IMG/VR virus record: IMGVR_UViG_3300045988_023748
Direction: 5' to 3' (one strand)
Source of the DNA: a virus
Length of the DNA: 64,000 bases
Made by a program: the position numbers and the translations under genes. Below, piece by piece: positions 1 through 63,626 of the stretch (within the stretch, counting starts at the first letter, position 1; each line of letters starts with the position of its first letter). The notes under the pieces were generated by a model, which saw nothing but the letters and a program-made list of their open reading frames with translations, was not told where the DNA came from and made no database searches.

Positions 1-24
1 CCAGTAATCATGTAACAGTGATGT

Positions 25-49
25 GTGGGTTGGAGTCCCACTGCTTCCT
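25..49 (+). pseudogene. tRNA 3' fragment (T-arm gtggg/ttggagt/cccac plus acceptor 3' strand) at window edge
   Basis: T-stem/loop/T-stem plus 7-nt acceptor-like tail ending cttcctc. The 5' partner would lie upstream of the window, if it exists. Confidence 0.25.
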
Positions 50-75
50 CAAAACTGTTGGTCGTGTAACAGCGA

Positions 76-103
76 TCCCAGGGTTCGAATCCCTGTCCTT
101 CCT
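76..103 (+). pseudogene. second tandem tRNA 3' fragment (T-arm cagggttcgaatccctg plus tccttcc)
   Basis: Canonical TTCGAAT T-loop with a 5-bp stem. No complementary 5' acceptor within 90 nt upstream. It is a near-duplicate of the fragment at 25-49, and both are preceded by tgtaacag(t/c)g. Confidence 0.3.
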
Positions 104-128
104 CTTATTAATTTATTAATGAAAGATT

Positions 129-455
129 ATGAAATTGAAATTTAAACACGTTGATCAGCTCAGTAACAATAAGAAAGCAAGAGTAGCTTACAGAGTCATA
201 AGATTGTTACCAGAGGAACCTGTATTGAACGCATTCTTTGATTCCGAAGATGTCCCTGAGAACTTAGAACTTGCTGTTAGAGCCAGACATAAAGAAGCTG
301 AAGAGCTTATGAATGTTAATCTTCCAAAACTTCCTAGGAAGATGAAGAAGAGACTTAAACGTCTTATTGGGACATTATACAATGGTTATAGTCTAGCTGT
401 TGCTATATTAGACAATGAACGTGACACTATATCCAACGAAGTACAGCAAGGATAA
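129..455 (+). CDS. hypothetical protein (lysine-rich, 108 aa)
   Basis: ORF track. Follows the tRNA-like fragments. Confidence 0.4.
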   Translation: MKLKFKHVDQLSNNKKARVAYRVIRLLPEEPVLNAFFDSEDVPENLELAVRARHKEAEELMNVNLPKLPRKMKKRLKRLIGTLYNGYSLAVAILDNERDTISNEVQQG

Positions 456-702
456 CAGCCGTTTGCATGCTATTCTAATTAATAAGTTTAAGGGAAAGCG
501 CACACCTATATTATACGGGTATTTCTCATTTGTTAAAGAACAATTCTACATATCTAATACAGCACCTGGTGTGCGTCTCACGTATGAAATACGAACAGAA
601 CTTATTAAGGAGCTGAGAAGGTTTCACTGGAATTATTCCTATAACATGGATGCTAAAGCTTATAGAGATTGGCTAAAGTATCACAGTGTATTTAACTATT
701 AA
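415..702 (+). CDS. hypothetical protein (95 aa)
   Basis: ORF track. Overlaps the previous ORF in another frame. Confidence 0.3.
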   Translation: MNVTLYPTKYSKDNSRLHAILINKFKGKRTPILYGYFSFVKEQFYISNTAPGVRLTYEIRTELIKELRRFHWNYSYNMDAKAYRDWLKYHSVFNY

Positions 703-759
703 AATTTAATTATCGTATGAAGACAATCAATTTATCGGGACTAGATATGAAGAAATTCA

Positions 760-1107
760 TTGGTACTGGTTACAATCCAAGTCAGGACATTGTTAATATT
801 AATGGACGAGACGATGGAAGAACTAAACATGAAAGAATCAAGAATTCACAGAAACAAATTGTGGAGGAACCTAAAGAAAGACCAGAAGTATATTACTAGG
901 ATTAAACGGTCATTTCCGCATTGGTATATCTGTAGCAGTAATAAGTGGCGTAAAGCAATAAGCTGGACTGAACTTTATAATGCTAAGAATACCTTTAGGT
1001 TTAAAACCATGAGTACTCCCTGTAGTTGTGCAATATGTAAGGGAGAAAGATATAACAGATTGCAATATAAAAGGACTACTAAAGAACTGATAGCTTTATG
1101 TTCATAA
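760..1107 (+). CDS. hypothetical protein (115 aa, Cys-containing C-terminus)
   Basis: ORF track. Overlaps 717..899. Confidence 0.3.
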   Translation: MVLVTIQVRTLLILMDETMEELNMKESRIHRNKLWRNLKKDQKYITRIKRSFPHWYICSSNKWRKAISWTELYNAKNTFRFKTMSTPCSCAICKGERYNRLQYKRTTKELIALCS

Positions 1108-1120
1108 AATAGTATCGCCT

Positions 1121-1169
1121 AAGAAGACATACAGCAGGTGTCATGTTACATATGATTACAATGTCTTCT
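1121..1169 (+). repeat. conserved hairpin element (AAGAAGAC stem with ACAGCAG-containing loop) directly upstream of a tRNA 5' end
   Basis: Inverted repeat aagaagacat...atgtcttct. The same stem and loop motif recur at 6155-6196 and 7489-7528, each time ending 5-7 nt before a tRNA(-like) 5' acceptor. Confidence 0.6.
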
Positions 1170-1175
1170 GTTAAT

Positions 1176-1209
1176 GCCTCGATAGTTTAAGGGATAGAAC
1201 AGTGGCCTT
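1176..1209 (+). tRNA. 5' half of split tRNA-Arg(UCU)-like gene (acceptor, D-arm, 5' anticodon stem)
   Basis: gcctcga ta gttt aagggata gaac a gtggc ctt folds as acceptor plus D-arm plus anticodon-stem 5' strand. The acceptor is complementary (2 G-U) to tcggggt at 1986-1992, and gtggc is the exact complement of gccac at 1960-1964. Confidence 0.4.
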
Positions 1210-1955
1210 CATACGGCTGGTGAGTCCGCAACTCACTGTTATTAATTTCAACAAAACATCCATTTACTTGTTTAATTCGTAATAGATTCGTATCTTTGAG
1301 GTACGAATTTCTAATTTAGACGAATATGACAAGTAAATGGATTGACGAGAAAGCTCAGCTTGAGCATTTAATTTTGGTAGATAAGCTCAGTTATGAGGAA
1401 ATAGGAAGAAGATATGGTTGTTCAGGTACTAATATTAAAAATGTAGCGCGTAGACTTGGCATAGAGCTACCAGTTAAACGTAAAATTAATCCTAAAGAAA
1501 CATTCAATAGGAAGTACAAATACTGTTTAAACTGTGGTGCAGAACTTATTAGTTATAACGGAAGTTATGGCAAGTACTGCGGCCCTAAATGTCAATTTAA
1601 ACATGCTCATATGCTTGCTTACAAGAAGCTTTTGGACGGTGATGAAAGTATAATGAGAGCTAACTACTCTCCTAAGGCTTTCAAGAAAGATATTCTAAAG
1701 GAGCAAGGTGGAGTATGTGCTATATGTGGTATGAAGCCTATCTGGAATGGTAAAGAGCTGGTCTTTATCATTGATCATATAGACGGACATGCATCTAACA
1801 ATCGTAGAGATAATTTACGATGCATATGTCCTAACTGTGATTCACAGCTTGATACTTATAAGTCTAAGAACAAGTGTGGAGAACGTTCCTACTACCGTTA
1901 CCATAAAAATGAAATTAATAACAATAAGGATTAGGTTCGACTCCTAGTTCTTATA
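1210..1955 (+). mobile_element. ~745-nt insertion (candidate intron) in the tRNA anticodon loop carrying an HNH endonuclease gene and an internal TATCTTTG promoter box
   Basis: Lies between the two matching tRNA halves. Contains the HNH ORF 1326..1934, a TAnnTTTG -7 box at 1291-1298, and an extra T-arm-like piece at 1935-1958. Confidence 0.4.
1326..1934 (+). CDS. HNH homing endonuclease with N-terminal HTH
   Basis: HTH-like LSYEEIGRRYGCSGTNIKNVARRLGI, and an HNH/Zn motif CAICG...DHIDGHASNNRRDNLRCICPNCD. Confidence 0.7.
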   Translation: MTSKWIDEKAQLEHLILVDKLSYEEIGRRYGCSGTNIKNVARRLGIELPVKRKINPKETFNRKYKYCLNCGAELISYNGSYGKYCGPKCQFKHAHMLAYKKLLDGDESIMRANYSPKAFKKDILKEQGGVCAICGMKPIWNGKELVFIIDHIDGHASNNRRDNLRCICPNCDSQLDTYKSKNKCGERSYYRYHKNEINNNKD

Positions 1956-1993
1956 CTAAGCCACATATCTGCGTTCGAATCGCAGTCGGGGTA
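1956..1993 (+). tRNA. 3' half of split tRNA-Arg(UCU)-like gene (anticodon stem 3' strand, variable loop, T-arm, acceptor)
   Basis: ctaa gccac atat ctgcg ttcgaat cgcag tcggggt a. The T-arm is perfect, and both the acceptor and the anticodon stem pair with the 5' half at 1176-1209. A mature anticodon loop would read cttctaa (UCU). Confidence 0.4.
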
Positions 1994-2018
1994 CTTATTA
2001 ACTAATAATTAAAAATGT

Positions 2019-2228
2019 ATGATGCTGATTATTTATATTATCGGATGTGTAGTTGCTTTGATGGCTGTGTGTTTCTATGAATATCGTGACTATAAGAGAA
2101 ATTCTAATTACACTTACAACTTGTGTGACTTATTAATGGAATTAACTCTTGTAATAACTTCATGGATTGGTGTTATTGCAGTTATAGTATTTGTATCTCC
2201 AGGTATAGTGATGTTTAGAAAGAAGTAG
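2019..2228 (+). CDS. small membrane protein (tandem paralog 1)
   Basis: ORF track. Hydrophobic, with a SWIGVIAVIVFVS segment shared with the next ORF. Confidence 0.4.
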   Translation: MMLIIYIIGCVVALMAVCFYEYRDYKRNSNYTYNLCDLLMELTLVITSWIGVIAVIVFVSPGIVMFRKK

Positions 2229-2229
2229 T

Positions 2230-2457
2230 ATGTTGTTCTTATGGATTTATTCGGCTGGATGCATTGCTACTTTATTACGTACCATAATCGGATTAATTAT
2301 TGAGTACAAAGTAAGGCAAAGAAATAAAGAACGTTACGAGTTCGACTATGGAATGTTACTAGTTCTGACACTGTTTGTAATTAGCTCCTGGATAGGTGTA
2401 ATGATCGTAGTATCTAGTAGTAGCGAAGATGTGTACAGGTACTTAACTAAGAAGTAA
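2230..2457 (+). CDS. small membrane protein (tandem paralog 2)
   Basis: SSWIGVMIVVSSS is similar to the previous ORF. Tandem duplication. Confidence 0.4.
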   Translation: MLFLWIYSAGCIATLLRTIIGLIIEYKVRQRNKERYEFDYGMLLVLTLFVISSWIGVMIVVSSSSEDVYRYLTKK

Positions 2458-2646
2458 CAAAGCATATAAAATGAATAATAGGTTATTAGACCGGTAAATA
2501 ACCTTCCGTAAGCAATCGGACGTTGAGAGTTGATAGCCCTACGATAGTGTGGCTACATACGGGCTGTGTAGTGTAATCCGGGAGCACATCATCCTTGCAA
2601 GATGAAGGAGGAGTTCAAATCTCACACGGTCCACTATTAAACTAAA

Positions 2647-3153
2647 TTGAATAATATGAGTGAAGAACTACTTGAAGTATCATGTGAACAGTATGAAAAA
2701 GAATTGGAATCGCTTAACGAGGTAAAAGAAGAGGTTGATAATTTATTATCACACCGTAAAGCTCTCAAGTCTTTAAATTGGATGTTTTATGCTAATACAG
2801 TTGTATTAATTGCTACTGTAACTCACAGTATCTTATGTTATATAAATGAAGCATTCACTACTACTACACTTATATGTGCATTAGTAGTGTTATACTGTAA
2901 TTATTCAATCCATAAGTACTATAAGAGAAACAACGATAGGATAGCCATTATTAATAAAGTTGGGGAAAGCTACAATAGATGTCTTGAACTACTAGAATAC
3001 TTGATAGCGGTATTAAACGAACTTGACGAGACTGATAACCGAGACAAGTTTGTAGAAGACGTAGGAGAAGACTTAGCACTAGCCATTCTAGAATACGAGA
3101 TGTGTAAACAAGTATTTGCAAATGCAGTGCGCGAAGGTTACGAGAATGAGTAA
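2647..3153 (+). CDS. hypothetical membrane/coiled-coil protein (168 aa)
   Basis: ORF track. A central hydrophobic stretch with acidic termini. Confidence 0.45.
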   Translation: MNNMSEELLEVSCEQYEKELESLNEVKEEVDNLLSHRKALKSLNWMFYANTVVLIATVTHSILCYINEAFTTTTLICALVVLYCNYSIHKYYKRNNDRIAIINKVGESYNRCLELLEYLIAVLNELDETDNRDKFVEDVGEDLALAILEYEMCKQVFANAVREGYENE

Positions 3154-3162
3154 CTATATATG

Positions 3163-3236
3163 GTGTTATTAGCTCAGTTGGTTAGAGCACTTGATTGTGG
3201 TTCAAGAGGTCGTCAGTTCGATTCTGACATAACACC
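3163..3236 (+). tRNA. tRNA-His(GUG) with encoded G-1 at 3162
   Basis: Full cloverleaf: acceptor gtgttat/ataacac, D-arm gctc-agttggtta-gagc, anticodon arm cttga-ttGTGgt-tcaag, T-arm gtcag-ttcgatt-ctgac. An extra 5' G is opposite the C73 discriminator. Confidence 0.85.
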
Positions 3237-3319
3237 CTTAGTATCTTATAGACATAATATTAACTTTAAAATTAATTTCCAGTTTGTTTCATTGTTTATT
3301 ATTCACTAAGATACTATAA

Positions 3320-3511
3320 TGCCGAGGATGTGGTCTAGGTGAAAGTCCTAGAGGTGGATGTGGATACGTTGCGTGACACGGTAATGGGAGTAGGTGCGAT
3401 GGCAGTCTGTATGGCGCCTTTAAGATTGTACAGCACTGAAGGATTTGGGTTGTCCAAAGCAACTGGCGTAATAAAGCATAAAATCCAGTGAAGACGTATG
3501 TGTAGGCAGTA
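3320..3511 (+). ncRNA. GC-richer structured non-coding segment of unknown identity between tRNA-His and tRNA-Phe
   Basis: ~190 nt with no convincing + ORF and several local hairpins (ggtctaggtgaaagtcctagag). Preceded by a tataat box. The only track ORF here is on the minus strand and looks spurious. Confidence 0.3.
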
Positions 3512-3586
3512 TGGGACAGTAGCGCAGGTGGTCAGTTCGCGCTGGACTGAAAATCCAGAGATGATGGTTCGACTCCATCCTGTCCC
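3512..3586 (+). tRNA. tRNA-Phe(GAA)
   Basis: Acceptor gggacag/ctgtccc, anticodon arm ctgga-ctGAAaa-tccag, T-arm gatgg-ttcgact-ccatc. The D-arm is slightly atypical. Confidence 0.8.
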
Positions 3587-3619
3587 ACTATTTATTAACA
3601 AGATTAAATTATTAACAAG

Positions 3620-4138
3620 ATGAGTGATGTGTATTATATCATAGGTGGCGTTGCCTATGGTATCTTTATCTTGCAATTCATAATATCATGGGTTGCAGGT
3701 GAACTTGATGTTGATGTGGACTTCGATGGAGATGCCGATTTCGACATTGGTGATGTTGTTTCATTTAAAGGTCTTATTCACTTCCTGATGGGATTTGGAG
3801 GATGGACTTCTATTAAACAACTACTAGGTTATGAGATAACCTGGATTGATTGGTTAATAGGATTCTTTATAGGTCTTGTATTTGTGTTTATGCTGTATCA
3901 TTTATATAAATTCTGTATGAAATTACAGAACTTTCCAACCGACGAACCTCTTGTATACTTAGCAGGAAGACCAGCTAGAATATATGTTCGCTTAGATGAT
4001 AAACGCTATTTAGCTTTTATAAATATAAGTGGAGCATCTAGAGAAGTAGAACTCGTTTCTATTTCAGGTACTTCATATGCGGTTAATCAAGTAGTTACAA
4101 TTCGTGAGGTTATGGATAACACATTGTACATAGATTAA
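3620..4138 (+). CDS. NfeD-like membrane protein (N-terminal TM helices, C-terminal beta-barrel-like domain)
   Basis: Two or three hydrophobic segments, then an acidic linker and a soluble C-terminus. Sits immediately upstream of an SPFH gene, as in nfeD-stomatin and yuaF-floT operons. Confidence 0.5.
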   Translation: MSDVYYIIGGVAYGIFILQFIISWVAGELDVDVDFDGDADFDIGDVVSFKGLIHFLMGFGGWTSIKQLLGYEITWIDWLIGFFIGLVFVFMLYHLYKFCMKLQNFPTDEPLVYLAGRPARIYVRLDDKRYLAFINISGASREVELVSISGTSYAVNQVVTIREVMDNTLYID

Positions 4139-4149
4139 AGACTCATAAG

Positions 4150-6138
4150 ATGGAAATGACAACATTAATTATCGTAGGAGTAATTGTATTAATAGCAATT
4201 ATTACTATCATTGGGATTTTATCTCGTTATCGTAAATGTAAATCTGATGAACTATTAGTAGTTTATGGTAAAACTGGTTCTCACAAAGAGAAGGTAAATG
4301 AACTTGATGCCAAAGGGAACCAAGTTAGTAGGGAAGTAGAAATCAAAACTGCTAGAGTTTATCACGGTGGAGCTGCATTTGTATGGCCTATCATTCAGGG
4401 ATATGAAGTAATGTCAATGCGTCCTATTCAGTTGAATTTAACTCTCAAGGATGCATTATCAGCCCAGAATATTCGTGTTACTGTTCCTACTACAGTCACT
4501 GTAGCAATCAGCCAAGATCCATTAATTATGCAGAATGCTGCTAATAGATTGCTTGGCGTTGATGATACAGATAAAGAGAGTTTAATTTCAGACATTGTAT
4601 ATGGCCAAATGAGGCTTATTGTGGCTTCTATGGAAATTGAGGAACTTAATTCTAATAGAGATAAGTTCTTAACTCAAGCCAGAGACAATATTAATACTGA
4701 ATTAAACAAATTGGGTTTGTATCTGATTAATATCAATATTAGTGACATCAGAGATGCTGCTAATTATATTGAGAATTTGGGTCAGAAAGAAACTACTAAG
4801 GCTAGAGCACAGGCAGAAGCTGCTATTGCTGAAGAAGAGAAGAAAGGAGCAATTCAAATTGCCCTTACTACTAAGGAAAGGGAGACTAAAGTAGCTGAAA
4901 CTACTAGAGACCAGAAAGTAGCCATTGCTATTACTCTCAAGGATCAAGAGACTACTATTGCTGAAACTAATAAGGATAAAGCAATTAGATTAGCCGAAAC
5001 TACTAAGGAGCAGGAAGTTAAACTGTCAGAGCAGCAGAAGGAACAACGTATTGCTATTGCAGATCAACAGAAAGAGCAGGAAGTAGGAGTAGCTAAAGCT
5101 AACGCTGAGAAGCTTTCTAAGGTAGCAGAGCAGGAGTCTATTGCAATTTCTCAACAGACTGAATGGGATGCACAAGCTAAAGCTAATATGGCTAAATCTA
5201 AAGCGGAAGCAGCTGCTAAAGAACAAGAAGCTGAATCAGCTAAGCAAATTCGTATTGCTGCCGCCCAACAGAATCAGGAGGCTGAGACAATTAAAGCTGT
5301 TCAAGAGAAGGAGGCTAGGACTGCTGAATACGAGTCTGAAGCTCGTAAGAAGACAGCTGAAGCTAATAAGCAGGCTGGAGTAGCCGAGCATATGGCTACA
5401 ATTGAAGTGTCTAAGGCTAAAGGAGAAGCTGCAAAGGCTGCTGCTGATGCCGATAAGGTTGCAGGTATTTCTAAAGTGGATGCAGAAACTACTATTGCTA
5501 GAACCGAGCAAGAGAAGATTGCAGAAATTAAAGAAGCTGAAGCCAAAGCTAAAGAAGCTGAATTGAATGCAACAGTAATTGTACCCGCTAATAAGGCTAA
5601 GGAGAAAGCCATTATTGATGCTGAAGCTGTAAAGCAAGAAGCTATTCTTAAGGCAGAAGCTAAAGCTGCTGAAATTCTTAAGGAGGCAGAAGCTAAGGCA
5701 AATGCAACTCAGATGCAACTTGAAGCTGAAGCTGAAGGTACTAAGAGAAAGTTGCTTGCAGAGGCTGAAGGTAAGAGAGCATCTTTGATGGCAGAGGCAG
5801 ACAAGATTACTGCTGTTGAAATGGCTCCTGCAAAGGCAGTAGAGAAGATGATTGAATGTGGTATGACTCCACAAATGATTGTTCAATATAAGACAGTGGA
5901 TCAGCTTAAAGGCATTGCTGAAGCATCCGCAGAGATGTATGAACATATCCATCTTGGACAAGTTACTGTTTATGGTAACGAGAATACTGCTGGTAGTTTC
6001 ATGGCTAAAACAGCTGAGAATCTCAACCCAGCATTTGAACTTCTTAAGAGTATTCCTTTTAAGAAGACATTTAAAGAAATGTTTGTCGAGGATAAGAAGG
6101 ATAATCCAACCGAAGACAACTTTGAAGCTGTGAAGTAA
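4150..6138 (+). CDS. SPFH/band-7 (flotillin-like) protein with long Ala/Glu/Lys-rich coiled coil
   Basis: N-terminal TM helix, an SPFH-like core (VYHGGAAFVWPIIQGYEV...NIRVTVPTTVTVAIS), then ~350 aa of EA/KA heptad-like repeats. Confidence 0.75.
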   Translation: MEMTTLIIVGVIVLIAIITIIGILSRYRKCKSDELLVVYGKTGSHKEKVNELDAKGNQVSREVEIKTARVYHGGAAFVWPIIQGYEVMSMRPIQLNLTLKDALSAQNIRVTVPTTVTVAISQDPLIMQNAANRLLGVDDTDKESLISDIVYGQMRLIVASMEIEELNSNRDKFLTQARDNINTELNKLGLYLININISDIRDAANYIENLGQKETTKARAQAEAAIAEEEKKGAIQIALTTKERETKVAETTRDQKVAIAITLKDQETTIAETNKDKAIRLAETTKEQEVKLSEQQKEQRIAIADQQKEQEVGVAKANAEKLSKVAEQESIAISQQTEWDAQAKANMAKSKAEAAAKEQEAESAKQIRIAAAQQNQEAETIKAVQEKEARTAEYESEARKKTAEANKQAGVAEHMATIEVSKAKGEAAKAAADADKVAGISKVDAETTIARTEQEKIAEIKEAEAKAKEAELNATVIVPANKAKEKAIIDAEAVKQEAILKAEAKAAEILKEAEAKANATQMQLEAEAEGTKRKLLAEAEGKRASLMAEADKITAVEMAPAKAVEKMIECGMTPQMIVQYKTVDQLKGIAEASAEMYEHIHLGQVTVYGNENTAGSFMAKTAENLNPAFELLKSIPFKKTFKEMFVEDKKDNPTEDNFEAVK

Positions 6139-6154
6139 CAATCTTTTACAGCTT

Positions 6155-6196
6155 AAGAAGACGAACAGCATTAATAATGATACAGCAAGGTCTTCT
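6155..6196 (+). repeat. conserved hairpin element, copy 2
   Basis: aagaagac...acagca...gtcttct. Ends 6 nt before the tRNA-like 5' acceptor ggaggta at 6203. Confidence 0.55.
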
Positions 6197-6202
6197 GTAA
6201 TT

Positions 6203-6234
6203 GGAGGTATGGGTGAGTGGTCTATACCAGGGTT
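6203..6234 (+). tRNA. 5' part of a type-II tRNA-like gene (acceptor plus 3-bp D-stem with long D-loop)
   Basis: ggaggta tg ggt gagtggtctat acc a gggtt. The acceptor pairs with tgcctcc at 6805-6811 (one G-U). Its 3' end overlaps the GTG start of ORF 6217. Confidence 0.3.
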
Positions 6235-6240
6235 AAAAAT

Positions 6241-6672
6241 ATGGATACAAAAAGGTTAGGAAATATAGGTGAAGCTCTAACTCAAGCAGAGTTTGTTATG
6301 CGAGGGATTCCTTTGTATTTACCATTTGGAGAGAATGAAAAATCTGACATGATTATTGATTTAAATGGTAAATTAAAAAGAGTTCAATGTAAAACATCAG
6401 AGCAATTTATAGATAATAAAATAGTGTGGAAGTTATCAAGTAGAACAACATCAGGTTGTCATCAATACACTAAAGATGAAGTTGATTTCTTTGCACTATA
6501 TAATTTAGAATCTAAGATACACATCTTAATACCTATAGAAGATTTAAATGGAAGATATTCATTAAAAGTATCAGTTCCTTTTAAAGAATCTAAAAATCAG
6601 AGTGACCCGATTAACTGGGAAGATTATACATTTGATAAGGTATTAAAAATTCCTAAACTAGATTGTAATTAA
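6241..6672 (+). CDS. PD-(D/E)XK-fold endonuclease-like protein (Hjc/restriction-endonuclease-like)
   Basis: Motifs GNIGEA...SDMIIDL...KRVQCKTS. Probable start at ATG 6241 (the track ORF opens at GTG 6217). Lies between the two halves of a split tRNA-like gene. Confidence 0.4.
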   Translation: MDTKRLGNIGEALTQAEFVMRGIPLYLPFGENEKSDMIIDLNGKLKRVQCKTSEQFIDNKIVWKLSSRTTSGCHQYTKDEVDFFALYNLESKIHILIPIEDLNGRYSLKVSVPFKESKNQSDPINWEDYTFDKVLKIPKLDCN

Positions 6673-6758
6673 GGAGAGAGTAACCTGCAAGGAGCAGGGA
6701 TTGCCTGCTAAGCAAATCGTGCATTTCGGTGTATTGGGTTCGAAACCCAACCTCTCCG
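6673..6758 (+). tRNA. tRNA-Ser(GCU)-like (86 nt, type II), possibly degenerate
   Basis: Acceptor 6/7 bp, anticodon arm with loop cTGCTaa, T-arm ttggg-ttcgaaa-cccaa, long variable region. The D region has 4 linker nt and the variable arm pairs poorly. Confidence 0.35.
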
Positions 6759-6812
6759 CTAAGACTCCGAACCTCTAAAAGGGTTCCGCTGGTTCGAATC
6801 CAGCTGCCTCCG
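6759..6812 (+). tRNA. 3' part of split type-II tRNA-like gene (hairpin, T-arm gctgg-ttcgaat-ccagc, acceptor tgcctcc)
   Basis: Perfect T-arm and an acceptor complementary to 6203-6209. No 5' partner within 100 nt. Confidence 0.3.
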
Positions 6813-6862
6813 CGCTGATTAATGAGAGTTGTGAAATTATTATTAACCTAATTACTAAAATT

Positions 6863-7150
6863 ATGGTGAAAGTGTTAAATTCAAGGGAATTGATGAGTAG
6901 AGACTTTAAGTCTATACCCGATGCGGTTATCTTAGCTTTTAATACTTTAATAGTTAAGAATTGGAATGGTCTGGCTTCCGCGTTTAAACAATCAGATGTG
7001 ATCGCCTATATAGCATCTGATAACATAACAGAGGAAGAAGCTATTAAGAATCATTGGCTGGACGTAGAACCTATTTATAGAGCCAATGGATTCGGAGTAA
7101 AGTACGTAGGAAGAGGAAGTGATGCAGAATTCACTTTCTGGAAGGCATAA
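6863..7150 (+). CDS. hypothetical protein (95 aa)
   Basis: ORF track. Confidence 0.4.
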   Translation: MVKVLNSRELMSRDFKSIPDAVILAFNTLIVKNWNGLASAFKQSDVIAYIASDNITEEEAIKNHWLDVEPIYRANGFGVKYVGRGSDAEFTFWKA

Positions 7151-7154
7151 CGGA

Positions 7155-7228
7155 TGTCGGGTTCGTCTAATTGGATAGGACGCATGTCTCTCACACATGT
7201 AATACGGGTTCAAATCCCGTTGGGAATA
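7155..7228 (+). pseudogene. tRNA-like fragment (D-stem, anticodon arm catgt-ctCTCac-acatg, T-arm acggg-ttcaaat-cccgt) without a pairing acceptor stem
   Basis: Three arms fold, but the 3' tail tgggaat has no complementary 5' strand. The tail TTGGGAATAC recurs at 7298-7307. Confidence 0.3.
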
Positions 7229-7338
7229 CTATTAATGATTTATGCTTGTCTCATTGGCATACCAAGTTATTTGAAGAGATGGACACCTATCAATAACATT
7301 GGGAATACCTCAGCTGGCGGGAAGAGACAATACACTTA

Positions 7339-7377
7339 GGAACGGAAGTTGAATCCTGTGTCCGGGAACGGAAGTTA
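7339..7377 (+). repeat. direct repeat ggaacggaagtt x2 upstream of tRNA-Asp-like gene
   Basis: The 12-mer occurs at 7339 and 7366, 27 nt apart. Confidence 0.4.
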
Positions 7378-7399
7378 AGTGTAGGTAAGCTAGCTCTAT

Positions 7400-7471
7400 G
7401 GTGCATTGGTCTAAAGGTTAGGATACTAGACTGTCTATCTTGGGGTACGGGTTCGATTCCCGTATGCACCG
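7400..7471 (+). tRNA. tRNA-Asp(GUC)-like
   Basis: Acceptor ggtgcat/atgcacc perfect; T-arm acggg-ttcgatt-cccgt; anticodon arm ctaga-ctGTCta-tcttg with one mismatch; 72 nt. Confidence 0.55.
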
Positions 7472-7488
7472 CAATCTTTGATTTGCAT

Positions 7489-7528
7489 AAGAAGACTACA
7501 GCAGTATAGTTTTATATCAAAGTCTTCT
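7489..7528 (+). repeat. conserved hairpin element, copy 3
   Basis: aagaagac tacagcag...a gtcttct. Ends 7 nt before tRNA-Thr. Confidence 0.55.
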
Positions 7529-7534
7529 GAAATT

Positions 7535-7607
7535 GCCTCCTTAGCTCAACTGGCAGAGCAATCGTCTTGTAAGCGATAGGTTATCGGTTCGATTCCGGTA
7601 GGAGGCT
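7535..7607 (+). tRNA. tRNA-Thr(UGU)
   Basis: gcctcct...aggaggc acceptor, D-arm gctc-aactggca-gagc, anticodon loop ctTGTaa, T-arm atcgg-ttcgatt-ccggt. Confidence 0.85.
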
Positions 7608-7689
7608 CGATGATAGTCTTAGGCTATTGTTAGATTATTTTTAACACACAGAGATGCTTATGAAGTTAACATGTTAATGCGAAATGTAA

Positions 7690-8070
7690 ATGAGCAGTTT
7701 TAAAGAGAAATTGAGTAAGAGTGGTCAGAGTGTACTTGATGCAAGAGCACAGAATCTGTATGAATTGACTAAAATTGAAGAAGACAGATTCGTTCAGGAC
7801 TGCAAGTTGAAAGTACTCCGTATTCAGGGAGAAATCAATAAGCATAATGATCTTGCCGTTAAATCAAGAGACTCTTTGAATCCGGGAGAGAATCTGAATC
7901 CGGCTGAATGGGTAAAAACAAGACACGAATTGGCACGTAAACTGCGTGTTGCAAAGATTGAACTTGCTCTAGCCATGCAGGTAGACGAAGAAGAATTTCC
8001 TGCTGATGCAACAGAATCCATTAATTTGGATGATGTAAAAGGAGACATTACTAACCCATTAGATAATTAA
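7690..8070 (+). CDS. hypothetical protein (126 aa)
   Basis: ORF track. Stop is 2 nt before the vWA gene. Confidence 0.45.
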   Translation: MSSFKEKLSKSGQSVLDARAQNLYELTKIEEDRFVQDCKLKVLRIQGEINKHNDLAVKSRDSLNPGENLNPAEWVKTRHELARKLRVAKIELALAMQVDEEEFPADATESINLDDVKGDITNPLDN

Positions 8071-15020: not shown

Positions 15021-15039
15021 CAGATGTATCTAAGCTCTG

Positions 15040-15082
15040 GTGGGCAGAAGTGCTCGTGCGGGTTCGACTCCCGTTCTGGCCA
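15040..15082 (+). pseudogene. tRNA 3' fragment (T-arm gcggg-ttcgact-cccgt plus acceptor tctggcc) lacking a 5' half
   Basis: Only ~45 nt separate it from the preceding tRNA, and there is no complementary acceptor strand. Confidence 0.35.
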
Positions 15083-15100
15083 CAATTAAAATTATGTTGT

Positions 15101-29030: not shown

Positions 29031-29303
29031 TAGGTGACATTTGTCCAGTATAAACTCCTCTAATTGCCGGAAGTCCCTTAGAGCTTTAAGTACTGTAATC
29101 TAGTGGTAACATTAGAGGTCACTCAAGTTAACGCTTGAGGTGTAGTAATAATCTTAAAGATTGGGTAATCACATTAAAAGGCAGCCAAGCATCCTACTTT
29201 AGGATGAAGGTTCATCGACTATCTCGAAAGAGAGTACAGACGTATTACATATTTATGACTGTAATAAATAAGCAATATGTTTGGAAACGGGGAGAGCTTG
29301 TAG

Positions 29304-29311
29304 TATCTTTG
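29304..29311 (+). promoter_or_regulatory. Bacteroidetes-type -7 box TATCTTTG upstream of intron GIY-YIG gene
   Basis: TAnnTTTG 24 nt before ATG 29335. The same box precedes other endonuclease genes at 1291, 45586 and 62831, with variants at 41677 and 47237. Confidence 0.5.
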
Positions 29312-31075: not shown

Positions 31076-31304
31076 TGTATACCGTGAACTATTATGACGT
31101 AATAGACCAAGAAGTTGTGTTACCTTTGCCAGATACTACTGCGAATGTAGACATATTTGGTCTGTTACACCTATTAGAAAGACATTCTAAGGCTAGCATT
31201 TGCATTGTCTCTGCTTCTATAGGGAATAAGATGTTAGATGTACCAAGCCTTATGAGAAGCCTCAAATTTAGGTAGATTCAGTTGGTAGTATAAATAGATT
31301 TGAT

Positions 31305-31312
31305 TATCTTTG
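31305..31312 (+). promoter_or_regulatory. TATCTTTG -7 box upstream of 31335 gene
   Basis: Same motif as the endonuclease-gene promoters. Confidence 0.4.
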
Positions 31313-45490: not shown

Positions 45491-46295
45491 TGATAGAGTA
45501 ATCTATCTCGAACAACTCCTCTAATTGCTGGGACATCTTAACATTAATTAATGGTAGAAAGTTAGGAAATGTAAGTAAATTACATTATCTTTGCACTAGA
45601 TAATTAGTATTAAGACAATCAGCAGCTAAGCATTATGGAAGAAATTTGGAAAGAAATCCCTAACTATGAAGGGTACTTTGAAGTAAGTACTTTAGGTAAC
45701 TTTAGAAGTAAAGATAGAATTATCAAGTATAAGCAATCTGGAACTCGTAATTATCCTGGCAAATCACTTAAAGTAGAGGTTATGCAAGATGGTTACAGTA
45801 GGATTGTGTTAATGAAAGAAGGTGTTAAGAAAAGATATATGTGTCATAGGCTTGTAGCTGAGACGTACATACCAAATCCTGACAACAAACCTTACGTTAA
45901 TCATATAGATGGCAATCGTTCTAATAACTGTGTAGAGAACCTAGAATGGTGCACACAGTCAGAGAATGAAAGACACTCTGTAGATGTACTTGGTAAGTCT
46001 ATGAAGGGGAAGACTGCTCCAAAGGCAGTCAGATGTATAGAGAATGATACTATATATAAATCTATGAGTGAAGCAGTACGCCTTATAGGTAAGCCATCTT
46101 GTGTGGAAGGGTTACATAAAGCTATCAATGCTAATAGGTTGTATCATGGATATACATTTGAGTTCTGTAATGAAAGTTCAACGACTATCTCGAAAGAGAG
46201 TACACTGTAAGCTATTGACAGTGGAAATGGGGAGAATCCTAATAGGATTGTGATATAGTCTGACCTGTATGGTGACATACAGCAGTTCATAAGAG
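45491..46295 (+). mobile_element. group I intron 1 in nrdD with HNH endonuclease (boundaries approximate)
   Basis: AACTCCTCTAATTGCTGGGA is shared with the helicase intron (29058), as are CGACTATCTCGAAAGAGAGTACA and CCTAATAGG. GATATAGTC motif plus a P9-like hairpin ctgtatggtgacatacag. Confidence 0.55.
45635..46210 (+). CDS. HNH homing endonuclease (NUMOD4 plus HNH)
   Basis: EIWKEIPNYEGYFEVSTLGNFRS, then VNHIDGNRSNNCVENLEWCTQSENERH. Confidence 0.8.
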   Translation: MEEIWKEIPNYEGYFEVSTLGNFRSKDRIIKYKQSGTRNYPGKSLKVEVMQDGYSRIVLMKEGVKKRYMCHRLVAETYIPNPDNKPYVNHIDGNRSNNCVENLEWCTQSENERHSVDVLGKSMKGKTAPKAVRCIENDTIYKSMSEAVRLIGKPSCVEGLHKAINANRLYHGYTFEFCNESSTTISKESTL

Positions 46296-54544: not shown

Positions 54545-55933
54545 ATGCGTATAAATCAATCTTCTAAGTTTAATGTTAATTATGCAGCTAAGATAATTCA
54601 AGTAAAAGATTTCACACCACACCCTAATCCTAAATGTGAAAGGATGAAATGTGTTCATGTAGATGGTTATATGATATCCGTATCTAAGGATACTCAACCA
54701 GGGCAATATATATATTTCCCTGTAGGATGTCAGATTGCTAATAAATATTTGGCAGCTAATAATCTATTTAGACACAATGAATTCAATGCTAACAAGGAAG
54801 CTTCTCCAGGTTTCTTTGAGGATAATGGTAGGGTAAAGCCTATTAAGTTGCAGGGAGTTCCTTCAGAGGGATTTATAATGCCTATAGATTCGTTATATAA
54901 ATGGCTGGATTTTATAGGAGAATCTCATGAAGTAGTTACCAATTTGAAAGAAGGAACAGAATTTGATAGTTTGGATAAACATATACTTTGTAAGAAGTAT
55001 GTAGTGAATCCTCCTAAAACTTCTGGAAATTCTTCTAGGCAAGCTAAGCAGCCTAAAGGCATTAGTAAATTAGTAGAGAATCAGTTTAGATTTCACTATG
55101 ATACTGTTCTCATTAAGAAATGTCCTTGGGTTATTAAACCTAATGATATTATTAGTATTACTTCCAAAGTACATGGAACATCAGGTATTTCTGCCGATGT
55201 ACTATGTAAAAGACCATTAAGATGGAAAGACAAGGTGGCTAGCTGGTTCACAGATGTTCCAGACACTAAGTATGACTACTTATGGTCTTCTAGAAAGGTA
55301 GTTAAAAATCAGTATTACAATAAAGAAGCAAGTGCAGGATATTATGGTTGTGATATTTGGGGTGAAGCTCATTCTAAATTGTCTCCGTATCTTACTAAAG
55401 GACTTACTCTTTATTATGAAATCATAGGATGGCTGCCTACAGGTCAGGCTATTCAAGCAATGAATGGTAAAGCTTATGACTATGGTTATGAGAGACCTAT
55501 ATGGGATCCTACTACTCAGACTACACCGTATGAATATGGTAAGAATTTCGGTATCCAAATTTACCGTATTACTTATACAAATCCAGATGGTGTGGTATTT
55601 GAATTCTCTGCTAGACAAGTACAACAGTGGTGTAAAGATAAAGGACTTACTCCGGTAGAACAGTTATATTACGGATATGCTAAGGATTTATATCCAGAGC
55701 TTGATGAGACTGAGCATTGGAATGAGAATTTTATCCAAAAGCTAGCTAATGATAAAAGGTTCTACATGGAAGAACTTTCACCTACATGTCACAATGATGT
55801 ACCACATGAAGGTATAGTGATTCGCATTGAGAATGGTTTATCTGAAGCTTACAAACTTAAATGCTTTAGATTCTTAGGAGAGGAGTCTAAGTCATTAGAT
55901 AAAGGAGAAATTGATATAGAAGCAGACCAGTAA
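54545..55933 (+). CDS. RNA ligase-like nucleotidyltransferase (Rnl2-type motif I)
   Basis: ITSKVHGTSG resembles KxHG motif I of Rnl2 ligases. It is the second ligase-superfamily gene, besides the DNA ligase. Confidence 0.5.
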   Translation: MRINQSSKFNVNYAAKIIQVKDFTPHPNPKCERMKCVHVDGYMISVSKDTQPGQYIYFPVGCQIANKYLAANNLFRHNEFNANKEASPGFFEDNGRVKPIKLQGVPSEGFIMPIDSLYKWLDFIGESHEVVTNLKEGTEFDSLDKHILCKKYVVNPPKTSGNSSRQAKQPKGISKLVENQFRFHYDTVLIKKCPWVIKPNDIISITSKVHGTSGISADVLCKRPLRWKDKVASWFTDVPDTKYDYLWSSRKVVKNQYYNKEASAGYYGCDIWGEAHSKLSPYLTKGLTLYYEIIGWLPTGQAIQAMNGKAYDYGYERPIWDPTTQTTPYEYGKNFGIQIYRITYTNPDGVVFEFSARQVQQWCKDKGLTPVEQLYYGYAKDLYPELDETEHWNENFIQKLANDKRFYMEELSPTCHNDVPHEGIVIRIENGLSEAYKLKCFRFLGEESKSLDKGEIDIEADQ

Positions 55934-62627: not shown

Positions 62628-63626
62628 TGTGTCGGAGTAAAACTCCCTTAATTCGGTGAACCCTGGAGCACAAGTCGTGATGATTAACTGTATGGGAATA
62701 CCGAGCCAACCTAAACAGTAATGTTTAGAAGTGTGTAGAGACTAGAACACGGATTCCTTACTTTAGATGGTAAGGAAGGTAAAGTTCCACGAACAGGGAG
62801 AATATGTTATGTATTACACATAATATTAATTATCTTTGCAGGGTAATTAATAATTAAAAATTGTATTATGTGTAGTACTAAAATTTGCAAACGTTGTAAT
62901 AAAGAACAATCTATAGACAACTTCTATAAAGTCCCGTCTATGAAAGATGGACATGATAATACATGTAAGACTTGTAGGAAGGAGTTAAGAAGACTAAGAG
63001 ACGGAGTTAAAGTAACACCTATAGTTACTGAAGGTACACTAATCTGTCCTGTATGTAAACAAGAGTTACCAGTAGATAAGTTTGATACTTATGCTAAAAG
63101 TAAAACTGGTAGATATTGGATGTGTAGTGATTGCTATAAAGAGCATACATTAATTAATGGTGGACAAGATAAGAACTATTTCAGGAAGCTTAGAATTAAA
63201 CTATGTCCAGAATATAGAGAAGAAATTCAGCAGCAGAAGAAGGCGTCCAGAGAACGTAACATAGAACAAGCTATGTTAACCAGTGCCAAAAATCGTGCTG
63301 CCAGAAAGGGGTTAGAATTTAACTTGGAACTGTCTGATATAGTAATTCCAGAGAAATGTCCGCTGTTGGAAGTTCCATTCCATTTTGGAACTAAAGAATG
63401 CTATGATTACTCTCCATCTATTGATAGAATTGACAATTCTAAAGGATACGTTAAGGGAAATATTCAAATCATCAGTATGAAAGCTAACGCTATGAAGAAC
63501 TCTGCGTCTCTTGAGGAGTTATACACGTTTTGTAAAAACATATTAAGATATAGTCCGAACTGCACCGAACAGGTACAGAATTAGAGGATAAAGAGCCTCT
63601 AAGATAACAGAATGACAACATGCTGG
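62628..63626 (+). mobile_element. group I intron in polA carrying an HNH endonuclease (boundaries approximate)
   Basis: GAGACTAGAAC and TAAGATAACAG P7-like elements, plus a TATCTTTG box at 62831. Exon 2 has no need for its own start codon if spliced. Confidence 0.5.
62868..63584 (+). CDS. HNH-family homing endonuclease with N-terminal zinc fingers
   Basis: CxxC pairs ICPVCK/CSDC. C-terminal ...IDRIDNSKGYVKGNIQIIS..AN.MK HNH-like motif. Confidence 0.6.
   Translation: MCSTKICKRCNKEQSIDNFYKVPSMKDGHDNTCKTCRKELRRLRDGVKVTPIVTEGTLICPVCKQELPVDKFDTYAKSKTGRYWMCSDCYKEHTLINGGQDKNYFRKLRIKLCPEYREEIQQQKKASRERNIEQAMLTSAKNRAARKGLEFNLELSDIVIPEKCPLLEVPFHFGTKECYDYSPSIDRIDNSKGYVKGNIQIISMKANAMKNSASLEELYTFCKNILRYSPNCTEQVQN

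What the first reader, a model, noticed from the sequence alone, without database searches (positions are those of the whole stretch)
1121..7528. Conserved ~45-nt hairpin element placed 5-7 nt upstream of three tRNA 5' ends
Copies sit at 1121-1169, 6155-6196 and 7489-7528. All have the stem AAGAAGAC(N)/(N)GTCTTCT, a loop containing ACAGCA(G), and a position immediately before a tRNA(-like) acceptor 5' end (1176, 6203, 7535). A conserved stem with a variable-length loop argues for an RNA-level function. Possibilities are a processing site for tRNA 5' maturation, a terminator-antiterminator, or a landmark recognised by an endonuclease.
Basis: seen in the sequence. Interest (0 to 1): 0.55.

Follow-up and report, generated by a model that had tools for sequence, protein, structure and literature searches.

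The report
Hairpin RNA modules before phage tRNAs
Three copies of a conserved small hairpin lie six bases in front of tRNA genes in a crAss-like gut phage. They belong to a widespread phage RNA family, apparently undescribed, whose layout matches the 'Class I' small RNAs reported only from social amoebae.

Summary
AAGAAGAC…GTCTTCT hairpins lie at 1121-1169, 6155-6196 and 7489-7528, each exactly 6 nt before a tRNA 5' end (0.01 expected by chance). The window is part of a crAss-like (Crassvirales) phage with a tRNA array of more than 30 genes. In relatives the same element precedes six tRNA species. Its stem covaries (AGAAGAC/GTCTTCT, AGAAGGC/GCCTTCT, AGAAGCC/GGCTTCT, AGAAGTC/GACTTCT, AGGAGA/TCTCCT), so the arms pair. 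The element always lies on the tRNA strand. It is one form of a much larger family in viral contigs: AAG, a 7-bp closing stem, (Y)UUACAGCA(A), a variable AU-rich loop, the 3' arm, then CUG(U). Family members occur 5-11 nt before many kinds of tRNA. They also form tandem arrays that end in a U-tract, or enclose anticodon-arm-like or YrlA-like tRNA mimics. This layout matches dictyostelid Class I RNAs feature for feature (Rfam RF01414 sub-threshold hits; Kjellin 2021). My best reading is a small-RNA unit of its own, co-transcribed with the tRNAs and freed by tRNA processing, that offers a protein-binding platform. It is probably not a mere processing signal, promoter or terminator. Expression and function are untested.

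The parts
1121..1171 (+). Module A (51 nt): AAG start, 5' arm 1122-1130 (AGAAGACAU), ACAGCA 1131-1136, 24-nt variable loop remainder, 3' arm 1161-1169 (AUGUCUUCU), then GU
   Evidence: CM R1 scores it 49.6 bits. The independent CM R2 scores it 26.1 bits, E 0.006, the best hit in the window.
1170..1175 (+). 6-nt single-stranded spacer GUUAAU between module A and tRNA +1
1176..1994 (+). tRNA-Arg(tct) downstream of module A. It is interrupted in the anticodon loop by a 746-nt insertion carrying an HNH ORF (1326-1934). The exons join to give the loop CUUCUAA.
   Evidence: ARAGORN with introns allowed; Pfam HNH_3; intron-less allele in L002
6155..6198 (+). Module B (44 nt): AAG start, 5' arm 6156-6162, ACAGCA 6165-6170, variable loop, 3' arm 6190-6196, then GU
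   Evidence: R1 43.8 bits. R2 23.0 bits, E 0.025, the second-best hit in the window. Conserved at the same place in relatives whose SPFH protein is 69-74% identical.
6203..6813 (+). Ser-type tRNA downstream of module B. It is interrupted by a 531-nt insertion that holds a PD-(D/E)XK homing-endonuclease ORF (6241-6672) and a degenerate tRNA-Ser(GCU)-like sequence (6673-6760).
   Evidence: the uninterrupted tRNA-Ser(gct) allele is in L024 and L031
7489..7530 (+). Module C (42 nt): AAG start, 5' arm 7490-7497, ACAGCA 7498-7503, variable loop, 3' arm 7521-7528, then GA
   Evidence: R1 42.3 bits. R2 16.8 bits, E 0.46.
7535..7608 (+). tRNA-Thr(tgt), intact, 6 nt downstream of module C
7400..7472 (+). 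tRNA-Asp(gtc), whose 3' end lies 16 nt upstream of module C. Module C therefore sits between two tRNAs of the array.

Best explanation
Each element is a small structured RNA unit within the phage's polycistronic tRNA array. It consists of a 7-9 bp closing stem that joins an AAG 5' end to a CUG(U) 3' end, a single-stranded ACAGCA motif right after the 5' arm, and a freely evolving AU-rich loop. The following steps are inferred and not shown. The unit is transcribed together with the neighbouring tRNAs. RNase P cleavage at the +1 of the downstream tRNA leaves it as a hairpin RNA of about 42-51 nt with a 6-nt 3' tail. Processing of the upstream transcript defines its 5' side. The freed hairpin then acts in trans, with its stem and ACAGCA motif serving as a binding platform for a host or phage protein (a sponge or tether). 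This parallels dictyostelid Class I RNAs, which bind an RRM protein, and Y RNAs. The three window copies are the minimal, cargo-less form. In other phages the same frame displays anticodon-arm-like hairpins or YrlA-type tRNA mimics.
For: Pairing is supported by covariation. Copies found by their position upstream of tRNAs in relatives with 69-74% identical SPFH protein have stems AGAAGGC/GCCTTCT, AGAAGCC/GGCTTCT, AGAAGTC/GACTTCT, GGAAGTC/GACTTCC and AGGAGA/TCTCCT. On 32 diverse members, 96.9% of cells are paired, 6 of 8 pairs change on both sides, and the covariation score is 0.509 against 0.148 in shuffles and 0.17 or less when the partner is slid. The element is strand-specific: it is always co-oriented with the tRNAs and genes, and stem exceptions are 3 G.U against 0 A.C. 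The conserved unpaired nucleotides (A before the stem, ACAGCA, G after it) point to sequence-specific recognition. The module is autonomous. It occurs in tandem arrays with 2-6 nt spacers whose last unit is followed by a U-tract (L073, L117, L152, L337, L395). It also closes YrlA-like tRNA mimics (L315, L374, L386, L152). 18 of 36 CM hits lie 5-11 nt upstream of tRNAs of 14 different specificities, about the spacing seen between tRNAs in crAss001. The family is real and broad: 24 of 124 matches to AAGNNNNCTTACAGCAAA in viral contigs have the exact 7-nt complementary arm, against 1.2 in controls. A model built only from other lineages, without AGAAG stems, ranks window copies A and B first and second in the window. 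The layout equals that of Class I RNAs: AAG start, short terminal stem, motif next to the 5' arm, variable rest, CUGU end, T-run, 42-65 nt (PMC7919456). RF01414 gives 37.2, 33.2, 28.2 and 24 bits on phage members.
Against: There are no expression or end-mapping data, so a discrete stable RNA is an inference. Folding energies of the window copies are not significantly better than shuffles. Within the window's own lineage the stem is almost invariant in sequence (AGAAGNC). That could equally reflect recognition of DNA, or of the precursor in cis. The window copies carry no recognisable cargo and only 6 of the 11 motif positions. They did not reach E <= 5 against RF01414, and no phage member reaches its gathering score of 41.5 bits. 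The cultured crAss001 has no copy in its tRNA array, so the module is dispensable for crAss-like phages in general. No candidate binding protein was identified. Part of the covariation statistic is circular, because some members were collected by requiring complementarity.
Confidence: 0.4

Rival explanations
1. The element is a cis-acting leader or 'punctuation' hairpin. It would exist only in the precursor, where it insulates the folding of the next tRNA, fixes a 6-nt single-stranded leader for RNase P, or gives RNase E/III-type enzymes an entry site. It would have no role once cut off.
For: The spacing to tRNA +1 is strict: 6 nt in the window and 6-7 nt in relatives. N(-1) is U and N(-2) is mostly A, as expected for RNase P substrates. 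Half of the wider family lies directly upstream of a tRNA. Positions are kept before the same tRNA species across relatives with 69-74% identical SPFH protein.
Against: About 20 other tRNA species in the same arrays do without it. The same module forms tRNA-free tandem arrays and encloses tRNA mimics. A simple insulator would not need an invariant single-stranded ACAGCA, AAG/CUG flanks, or a 17-55 nt loop. crAss001 processes its array without it.
Confidence: 0.25
2. The element is a scaffolded tRNA-fragment decoy. The frame stabilises small RNAs whose loops imitate anticodon arms or tRNA elbows, in order to titrate host tRNA-directed defence nucleases or tRNA-binding proteins. The window copies would be degenerate or differently targeted members.
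For: 9 of 24 family loops hold a hairpin of 5 bp plus 7 nt with tRNA-like anticodon loops (CUUUUAA several times, CUUGUAA, CUGUUAA, CUGUAAC). Others hold YrlA-type T-arm/acceptor/D-arm mimics. Loop A can form GUCAU-GUUACAU-AUGAU (read). The phage encodes an RNA ligase. From general knowledge, phage tRNAs are known counter-defences against anticodon nucleases.
Against: Loops B and C show no anticodon-arm-like hairpin. The mimicked anticodon bears no consistent relation to the neighbouring tRNA. No defence or nuclease link was tested.
Confidence: 0.15
3. The element is a DNA-level signal. It could be a promoter (a host sigma-A type promoter inside the loop, or a hairpin promoter for a phage RNA polymerase as in N4), or a recombination or cassette boundary that drives the observed shuffling of tRNA alleles.
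For: The arms are nearly invariant in sequence within the lineage. The 3' arm lies where a -10 element would if transcription began at tRNA +1. tRNA bodies downstream of identical hairpins are polymorphic among close relatives.
Against: None of 32 modules contains the Bacteroidota -7 box TAnnTTTG, although such boxes are plain elsewhere in the window. The arm-to-arm distance varies from 17 to 55 nt, which rules out a two-box duplex promoter. Loops this long make cruciform extrusion implausible, whereas N4 hairpins have 3-nt loops (own knowledge). Tandem units 2-6 nt apart leave no room for separate promoters. G.U pairs occur but no A.C. The U(-1)/A(-2) preference implies that a leader is transcribed. 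Arms of 7-9 bp are too short for homologous recombination.
Confidence: 0.1
4. The element is an intrinsic terminator or attenuator for the upstream gene or tRNA.
For: Each copy follows the end of an upstream gene or tRNA by 13-16 nt. Terminal members of tandem arrays in other phages are followed by U-tracts.
Against: The window copies have AU-rich 7-9 bp stems and 24-33 nt loops, and are followed by GUUAAU, GUAAUU or GAAAUU with no U-tract. A terminator 6 nt before a tRNA with no room for a promoter would silence that tRNA. A separate conserved hairpin already overlaps the SPFH stop codon at 6127-6151.
Confidence: 0.05

Closest known systems
Dictyostelid Class I RNAs (Rfam RF01414, Dicty_Class_I_RNA; Kjellin et al. 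2021, PMC7919456)
   Same: The layout is the same piece by piece: a 5' AAG whose G pairs with the C of a 3' CUGU, a short stem (6 bp there, 7-9 bp here) joining the two ends with many compensatory changes, a conserved single-stranded motif directly after the 5' arm (Rfam consensus CUUACAGCAA; phage consensus (Y)UUACAGCA(A)), a variable AU-rich remainder, a length of 42-65 nt, and a T-run after stand-alone genes. RF01414 scores phage members at 24-37 bits.
   Different: The phage elements are found in crAss-like and other phage contigs of Bacteroidota-type hosts, not in amoebal nuclei. They are embedded in tRNA arrays rather than expressed from a DUSE promoter. No phage member reaches the gathering score of 41.5 bits. 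The window copies keep only ACAGCA of the 11-nt motif. Some phage members carry tRNA-mimic cargo, which is not reported for Class I RNAs. Whether the likeness reflects homology (for example gene transfer between bacteria or phages and bacterivorous amoebae) or convergence is open.
Bacterial/phage Y RNA-like YrlA (Rfam RF02553; Chen et al. 2014, PMC4201824)
   Same: Both are modular ncRNAs. The 5' and 3' ends pair into a protein-binding stem, and the distal part is variable or mimics tRNA (T arm, closed acceptor-like stem-loop, D arm). Several members of the phage family enclose exactly such a domain and hit RF02553 at 29-40 bits. Both are also found in phages.
   Different: The Ro/Rsr-binding motif GNCGAAN0-1G is replaced by the AAG/ACAGCA/CUG frame. 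The window copies have no tRNA-like domain. No TROVE/Ro60 gene was seen among the window proteins scanned (the scan was not exhaustive). The scores are below the gathering threshold of 69 bits.
Small RNAs made as by-products of tRNA processing (own knowledge: murine gammaherpesvirus 68 tRNA-miRNA units cut by tRNase Z; the E. coli 3'ETS-leuZ sponge)
   Same: A functional small RNA is physically fused to a tRNA, and tRNA-processing enzymes define one of its ends. Here RNase P would create the 3' end of the hairpin.
   Different: The order is reversed: the hairpin lies 5' of the tRNA. The context is bacterial and viral. Processing has not been shown.
Hairpin promoters of phage N4 virion RNA polymerase (own knowledge; reviews listed)
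   Same: Both are a conserved inverted repeat a few nucleotides upstream of the first transcribed or mature base, in a phage whose relatives carry unusual RNA polymerases.
   Different: N4 hairpins have 5-7 bp stems and 3-nt loops and act in DNA. Here the loops are 17-55 nt, the units are packed 2-6 nt apart in arrays, and G.U pairs occur.

Membership tests
Dictyostelid Class I RNA (RF01414) | Conserved ends: the RNA starts AAG and ends CUGU, with the 5' G pairing to the C of CUGU | tested here: met
   A is AAG...CUGU (1121-1171), B is AAG...CUGU (6155-6198), and C is AAG...CUGA (7489-7530). The definition is from PMC7919456. This is met at sequence level only, because the RNA ends have not been mapped.
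Dictyostelid Class I RNA (RF01414) | Short stem joining the 5' and 3' ends, kept by compensatory changes | tested here: met
   The stem is 7-9 bp. On alignment A1, 96.9% of cells are paired and 6 of 8 pairs change on both sides. Covarying stems were also found by position alone.
Dictyostelid Class I RNA (RF01414) | Conserved 11-nt motif adjacent to the 5' arm (Rfam consensus ..CUUACAGCAA) | tested here: inconclusive
   The window copies keep ACAGCA only (AUACAGCAG, GAACAGCAU, UACAGCAG). Other phage members carry CUUACAGCAA(A) in full.
Dictyostelid Class I RNA (RF01414) | Length 42-65 nt with a variable remainder | tested here: met
   The modules are 51, 44 and 42 nt from AAG to CUGN. Their loops cannot be aligned between relatives with 69-74% identical SPFH protein.
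Dictyostelid Class I RNA (RF01414) | Rfam gathering score (41.5 bits) | tested here: not met
   There was no RF01414 hit at E <= 5 on window 1-8000. The best phage members score 37.2, 33.2, 28.2 and 24 bits.
Dictyostelid Class I RNA (RF01414) | DUSE promoter about 60 nt upstream; expressed as an abundant discrete RNA in Dictyostelia | not testable with these tools
   The sequence is from a phage of a bacterial host, no expression data are available, and the DUSE sequence was not at hand.
Y RNA-like YrlA (RF02553) | tRNA-like domain (T arm, acceptor-like stem-loop, D arm) distal to the terminal stem | tested here: not met
   There was no YrlA or tRNA hit inside the three window modules. The domain is present in other members of the phage family (L315 4237-4306, L374 3981-4100, L386, L152).
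Y RNA-like YrlA (RF02553) | Ro/Rsr-binding module with the GNCGAAN0-1G motif in the terminal stem (PMC4201824) | tested here: not met
   The motif is absent from A and C. B has GACGAACA, which lacks the closing G.
Y RNA-like YrlA (RF02553) | Encoded next to an rsr (Ro60/TROVE) gene | not tested
   About 20 window proteins were scanned and none was TROVE. The scan was not exhaustive.
Intrinsic (rho-independent) terminator | G+C-rich hairpin with a short loop, followed at once by a U-tract | tested here: not met
   The stems are AU-rich, the loops are 24-33 nt, and the 3' flanks are GUUAAU, GUAAUU and GAAAUU.
Bacteroidota sigma-A promoter | -7 box TAnnTTTG (with a -33 TTTG) at a fixed distance from the start | tested here: not met
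   0 of 32 modules contain TAnnTTTG. Only near-matches lie upstream of copy C. Clear TTATCTTTG boxes occur elsewhere in the window.
Self-cleaving ribozymes / group I introns (Rfam) | Match to a curated covariance model | tested here: not met
   There were no such hits on window 1-8000 at E <= 5 or at gathering score on the whole window.

The most novel reading that the evidence does not exclude
Crassvirales-type phages encode a large, so far unrecognised class of small RNAs that are the counterpart, and perhaps relatives by horizontal transfer, of the dictyostelid Class I RNAs thought to be unique to social amoebae. The AAG-stem-ACAGCA...CUGU frame would be a portable protein-binding scaffold that is matured by the tRNA-processing machinery. 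In many phages it displays tRNA-fragment mimics (anticodon arms, YrlA-type elbows), which would act as tethers or decoys against host RRM proteins or tRNA-directed defences.
Probability: 0.2. Interest if true: 0.9.

Novelty: new variant of a known kind. Interest (0 to 1): 0.78.

Why it matters
If these modules are expressed as discrete RNAs, they define a widespread new class of phage non-coding RNA in the most abundant phage group of the human gut. The class would sit inside tRNA arrays, where annotation pipelines see only 'intergenic spacers'. Class I RNAs have no known function and have been called a dictyostelid invention linked to multicellularity. A bacterial-virus counterpart with the same frame would open that question to bacterial genetics and biochemistry, and would raise the possibility of transfer between prey and predator. 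The finding also links three themes that have been separate so far: Y-RNA-like tRNA mimicry, phage tRNA arrays, and the counter-defence roles of phage tRNAs. In practice, the covariance models built here give a direct way to annotate the family.

Tried and rejected
1. Specificity for ANN-decoding (t6A37) tRNAs. The first five partners (Ile, Lys, Arg-UCU, Ser-GCU, Thr) fitted, but Pro(tgg) also carries the element and the wider family precedes 14 tRNA types.
2. Internal host promoter. There is no TAnnTTTG in 32 modules, and the TGAT-like motifs in the loops lie at variable distances.
3. N4-type hairpin promoter or DNA cruciform. The loops are far too long.
4. Terminator. There is no U-tract in the window copies.
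5. Ribozyme or group I intron. Rfam gives no hits. CUGAUGA next to some copies is not conserved.
6. H-type pseudoknot ACAG/CUGU. The complementarity is there, but the compensatory A-U to G-C change of the first stem pair (AGG...CCG in L002 and L071) supports the plain stem and breaks the pseudoknot pair.
7. Remnant tRNA acceptor stems of the interrupted tRNAs. No complementarity fits.
8. Type IIS GAAGAC sites. Half-sites are common in coding sequence and uninformative.
9. About 14 loci from the first viral scan (L001, L007-L017, L022, L027, L030) and L029 are chance or coding matches from an unrelated phage. Most rows of the looser viral and genome scans are chance hits.
10. crAss001, which has published transcriptomes, has no copy, so existing data on that phage cannot help.
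11. The RbpB binding motif could not be retrieved from the paper's text, so the RRM-protein idea stays speculative.
12. Literature searches found no description of the motif or of permuted or Y-like tRNA mimics in crAss-like phages within the held library. This is not proof of absence.

Full report
OBSERVATION. AAGAAGAC-N-GTCTTCT matches at 1121-1169, 6155-6196 and 7489-7528 on the + strand, and shuffles give 0.01 matches on average. Searches with relaxed half-sites and two covariance-model searches of the whole window with filters off find no other copy. ACAGCA lies 1-2 nt after each 5' arm. Each 3' arm is followed by G plus five bases and then a tRNA 5' end, at 1176, 6203 and 7535. tRNA-Thr(tgt) at 7535-7608 is intact. 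The other two tRNA genes are split in the anticodon region. One carries a 746-nt insertion with an HNH ORF (1326-1934). The other carries a 531-nt insertion with a PDDEXK_5 (I-Ssp6803I-family) ORF at 6241-6672. Predicted folding energies alone are not remarkable, with z-scores of -1.1 to -1.7.

CONTEXT. The window is the replication and tRNA region of a phage. It encodes DNA polymerase A, a Dda-like helicase, a DNA ligase, an RNA ligase and an SPFH protein. The closest annotated relatives of the polymerase are Crassvirales (cr111_1, IAS virus, PhiCrAssBcn; 41-45% identity), and an unannotated 117-kb gut phage record is 92% identical. Genes lack Shine-Dalgarno sequences, and several intergenic regions carry the Bacteroidota -7 box TTATCTTTG. 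Related IMG/VR contigs of 93-185 kb carry an array of more than 30 tRNAs, including a suppressor tRNA(cta).

THE ELEMENT IN RELATIVES. An exact-pattern scan of viral contigs recovered the same three copies in close relatives, plus a fourth before tRNA-Ile. Fetching loci through the SPFH protein gave relatives at 69%, 74% and 57% protein identity. In the 69% and 74% groups the element sits at the same place after the SPFH gene, with an unalignable loop. Listing the 90 nt upstream of every tRNA in these loci shows the element before Ile(gat), Pro(tgg), Lys(ttt), Arg(tct), Ser(gct) and Thr(tgt), and before none of about 20 other tRNA species. These copies were found by position and not by pairing. 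Their stems read AGAAGGC/GCCTTCT, AGAAGCC/GGCTTCT, AGAAGTC/GACTTCT, GGAAGTC/GACTTCC and AGGAGA/TCTCCT, so all four base pairs occur at one stem position. The arms therefore pair. The consensus is U-A-[AGAAGNC]-N1-3-(A/U)CAGCA-loop(17-55 nt)-[GNCUUCU]-G-N5-6-tRNA.

A MUCH LARGER FAMILY. A looser scan returned mostly chance hits but also new lineages (L071/L138, L073, L117, L152). In these the stem sequence is different (GGUUACU/AGUAACC, GGAUUGC/GCAAUCC, GGGGACA/UGUCCCC and others), while three features persist: AAG at the start, (Y)UUACAGCAA right after the 5' arm, and CUG(U) at the end. Units stand in tandem 2-6 nt apart, and the last unit is followed by a U-tract. A covariance model (R1) built from 32 diverse members found 36 hits in 100 of these loci. 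18 of them lie 5-11 nt upstream of a tRNA. The tRNA types are Pro, Cys, Val, Asp, Lys, Ala, Thr, Ile, Trp, Arg, Gly, Glu, Tyr and Asn, and some loci are near-duplicates of one another. The remaining hits are followed by another unit or by a U-tract. On alignment A1, 96.9% of stem cells pair, 6 of 8 pairs change on both sides, and the covariation score is 0.509 against 0.148 for shuffles and at most 0.17 for slid partners. Part of this set was collected by requiring complementarity, so the number overstates independent support. Non-Watson-Crick stem cells are 3 G.U, 0 A.C and 3 other mismatches, the last probably false positives. A second model (R2) was built only from other lineages, with no AGAAG-stem member and no sequence from the window's lineage. 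It ranks copy A first (26.1 bits, E 0.006), copy B second (23.0 bits, E 0.025) and copy C fourth (16.8 bits) in the whole window. The window copies therefore belong to the wider family. In bacterial genome bins, the only genuine hits among the returned rows were three Bacteroidota contigs (an Alistipes bin, a Saprospiraceae MAG and a Bacteroidaceae MAG). The cultured crAss001 has none.

WHAT THE LOOPS CAN CARRY. In several members the loop is not empty. Nine of 24 hold a hairpin of 5 bp plus 7 nt with a tRNA-type anticodon loop (CUUUUAA, CUUGUAA, CUGUUAA, CUGUAAC and others). Others hold a T arm, a closed acceptor-like stem-loop and a D arm in that order. ARAGORN reads these as a permuted tRNA when the sequence is doubled. 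Rfam reads them as the tRNA-like domain of YrlA at 29-40 bits, below the gathering score. One member (L368) holds a D arm, an anticodon arm and a T arm, with the frame stem in the place of the acceptor stem. The frame is therefore a portable closing module. The window copies are its minimal form, although loop A can form GUCAU-GUUACAU-AUGAU.

COMPARISON WITH KNOWN FAMILIES. The only Rfam family that matches the frame itself is Dicty_Class_I_RNA (RF01414), at 37.2, 33.2, 28.2 and 24 bits on phage members against a gathering score of 41.5. Its consensus, GaUcuC-CUUACAGCAA-...-GagAuC-UG, has the same parts in the same order. Kjellin et al. 2021 define Class I RNAs by these features: an AAG start, a 6-bp stem joining the ends with many compensatory changes, an 11-nt motif next to the 5' arm, a variable remainder, a conserved CUGU end whose C pairs with the 5' G, a downstream T-run, and a length of 42-65 nt. 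They report finding none outside Dictyostelia, and the RNAs bind the RRM protein Rnp1A. The phage family meets every sequence-level feature. The window copies meet all but the full motif, and copy C ends CUGA. They are not members by Rfam's threshold, by promoter or by taxon. Whether the likeness is homology or convergence cannot be decided here. YrlA/Y RNAs share the modular logic, but their Ro-binding motif GNCGAAN0-1G is absent.

MECHANISM. The following is shown. The arms pair. The element is strand-specific. Conserved unpaired nucleotides flank and follow the stem. The unit is spaced from the next tRNA about as tRNAs are spaced from each other in crAss-like arrays (2-9 nt in crAss001). 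The unit also exists without tRNAs. The following is inferred. The unit is co-transcribed with the array. RNase P at the downstream tRNA generates its 3' end, which fits U(-1)/A(-2) in the spacer. The released hairpin of about 42-57 nt is a stable RNA that binds a protein through its stem and ACAGCA motif. I put this reading at 0.4. The cis-leader ('punctuation') reading is the main rival (0.25). The decoy reading is a specialised version suggested by the cargo (0.15). DNA-level promoter or recombination readings (0.1) and a terminator (0.05) fit the data poorly, for these reasons: no -7 box in 32 modules, variable arm spacing, tandem packing, G.U pairs, no U-tract in the window copies, and a separate conserved hairpin that already overlaps the SPFH stop codon.

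LIMITS. There are no transcript data. The literature library is partial.

Noticed in passing
window 1176-1994: tRNA-Arg(tct) is split in its anticodon loop by a 746-nt insertion with an HNH ORF (1326-1934). The exons join to give a canonical CUUCUAA loop, and close relatives (L002, L003, L004, L024, L034) have an uninterrupted allele. Rfam finds no group I intron, and there is no G before the 3' junction.
   Followed up: partly
window 6203-6813; L004 5285-5819: A Ser-type tRNA is split by a 531-nt insertion that holds a PD-(D/E)XK (I-Ssp6803I family) ORF and an odd nested tRNA-Ser(GCU)-like sequence (6673-6760). Relatives have different insertions (446 nt, 520 nt) or none. The Arg (window) and Ser (L004) insertions both end with the same T-arm-like hairpin ATTAGGTTCGAYTCCTART, 10-13 nt before the 3' junction. 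Rfam finds no group I model, so this may be an unusual kind of tRNA intron.
   Followed up: partly
window 2476-2560 and 3300-3512: A region of about 85 nt before tRNA-Ala and a GC-richer region of about 210 nt before tRNA-Phe are conserved in the 69% and 74% relatives (L041, L060). They look structured, and no Rfam family matches them.
   Followed up: no
window 6127-6151: A hairpin CUGUGAAG-UAACAAU-CUUUUACAG overlaps the SPFH stop codon. It is kept with compensatory changes in L041 and L060, and is a candidate terminator or stabiliser just upstream of module B.
   Followed up: partly
L018, L021, L024, L031, L034 (array just left of the window): Relatives carry a suppressor tRNA with anticodon CUA, which hints at TAG recoding in part of the genome. 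The window starts inside the tRNA-Trp/tRNA-Ser(tga) pair (1-103).
   Followed up: no
window 29276-29311, 31295-31312, 45586-45593, 62831-62838: Intergenic TTATCTTTG boxes match the Bacteroidota -7 promoter element TAnnTTTG, which indicates a Bacteroidota host and use of host RNA polymerase for some genes.
   Followed up: partly
window 15022-15100: A T-arm-like sequence (GGTTCGACTCC) with flanking pairing potential lies right after tRNA-Leu(taa). Neither ARAGORN nor Rfam calls it a tRNA.
   Followed up: no
L315 4200-4320, L374 (- strand) 3981-4100, L333, L387, L393, L201: In other phages the same AAG/ACAGCA/CUG frame encloses tRNA-like domains in YrlA order (T arm, closed acceptor-like stem, D arm). 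Some have an encoded CCA (L374, L387). These are either circularly permuted tRNA genes or Y-RNA-like mimics in phage tRNA arrays.
   Followed up: partly
L316 3293-3916; L071 3028-3358; L373 4845-5220; L073 1620-1705; L386 3462-3704: The tRNA-array loci that carry the module also hold a ROOL RNA, phage tmRNAs, a Hatchet ribozyme and a group I intron, all above Rfam gathering scores.
   Followed up: no
window 54545-55933: An RNA ligase gene (phrog_968) lies in the same genome as the split tRNAs and tRNA-linked hairpins. It is a possible tRNA repair or splicing enzyme.
   Followed up: no
L002/L018, L041/L044 (tRNAs after identical hairpins): Among closely related phages, the tRNA body downstream of an identical hairpin is often a different allele (Lys 76 nt against 73 nt, two Ile alleles, several Pro alleles). 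The breakpoints lie near the tRNA 5' end, so tRNA alleles appear to be exchanged rapidly.
   Followed up: no
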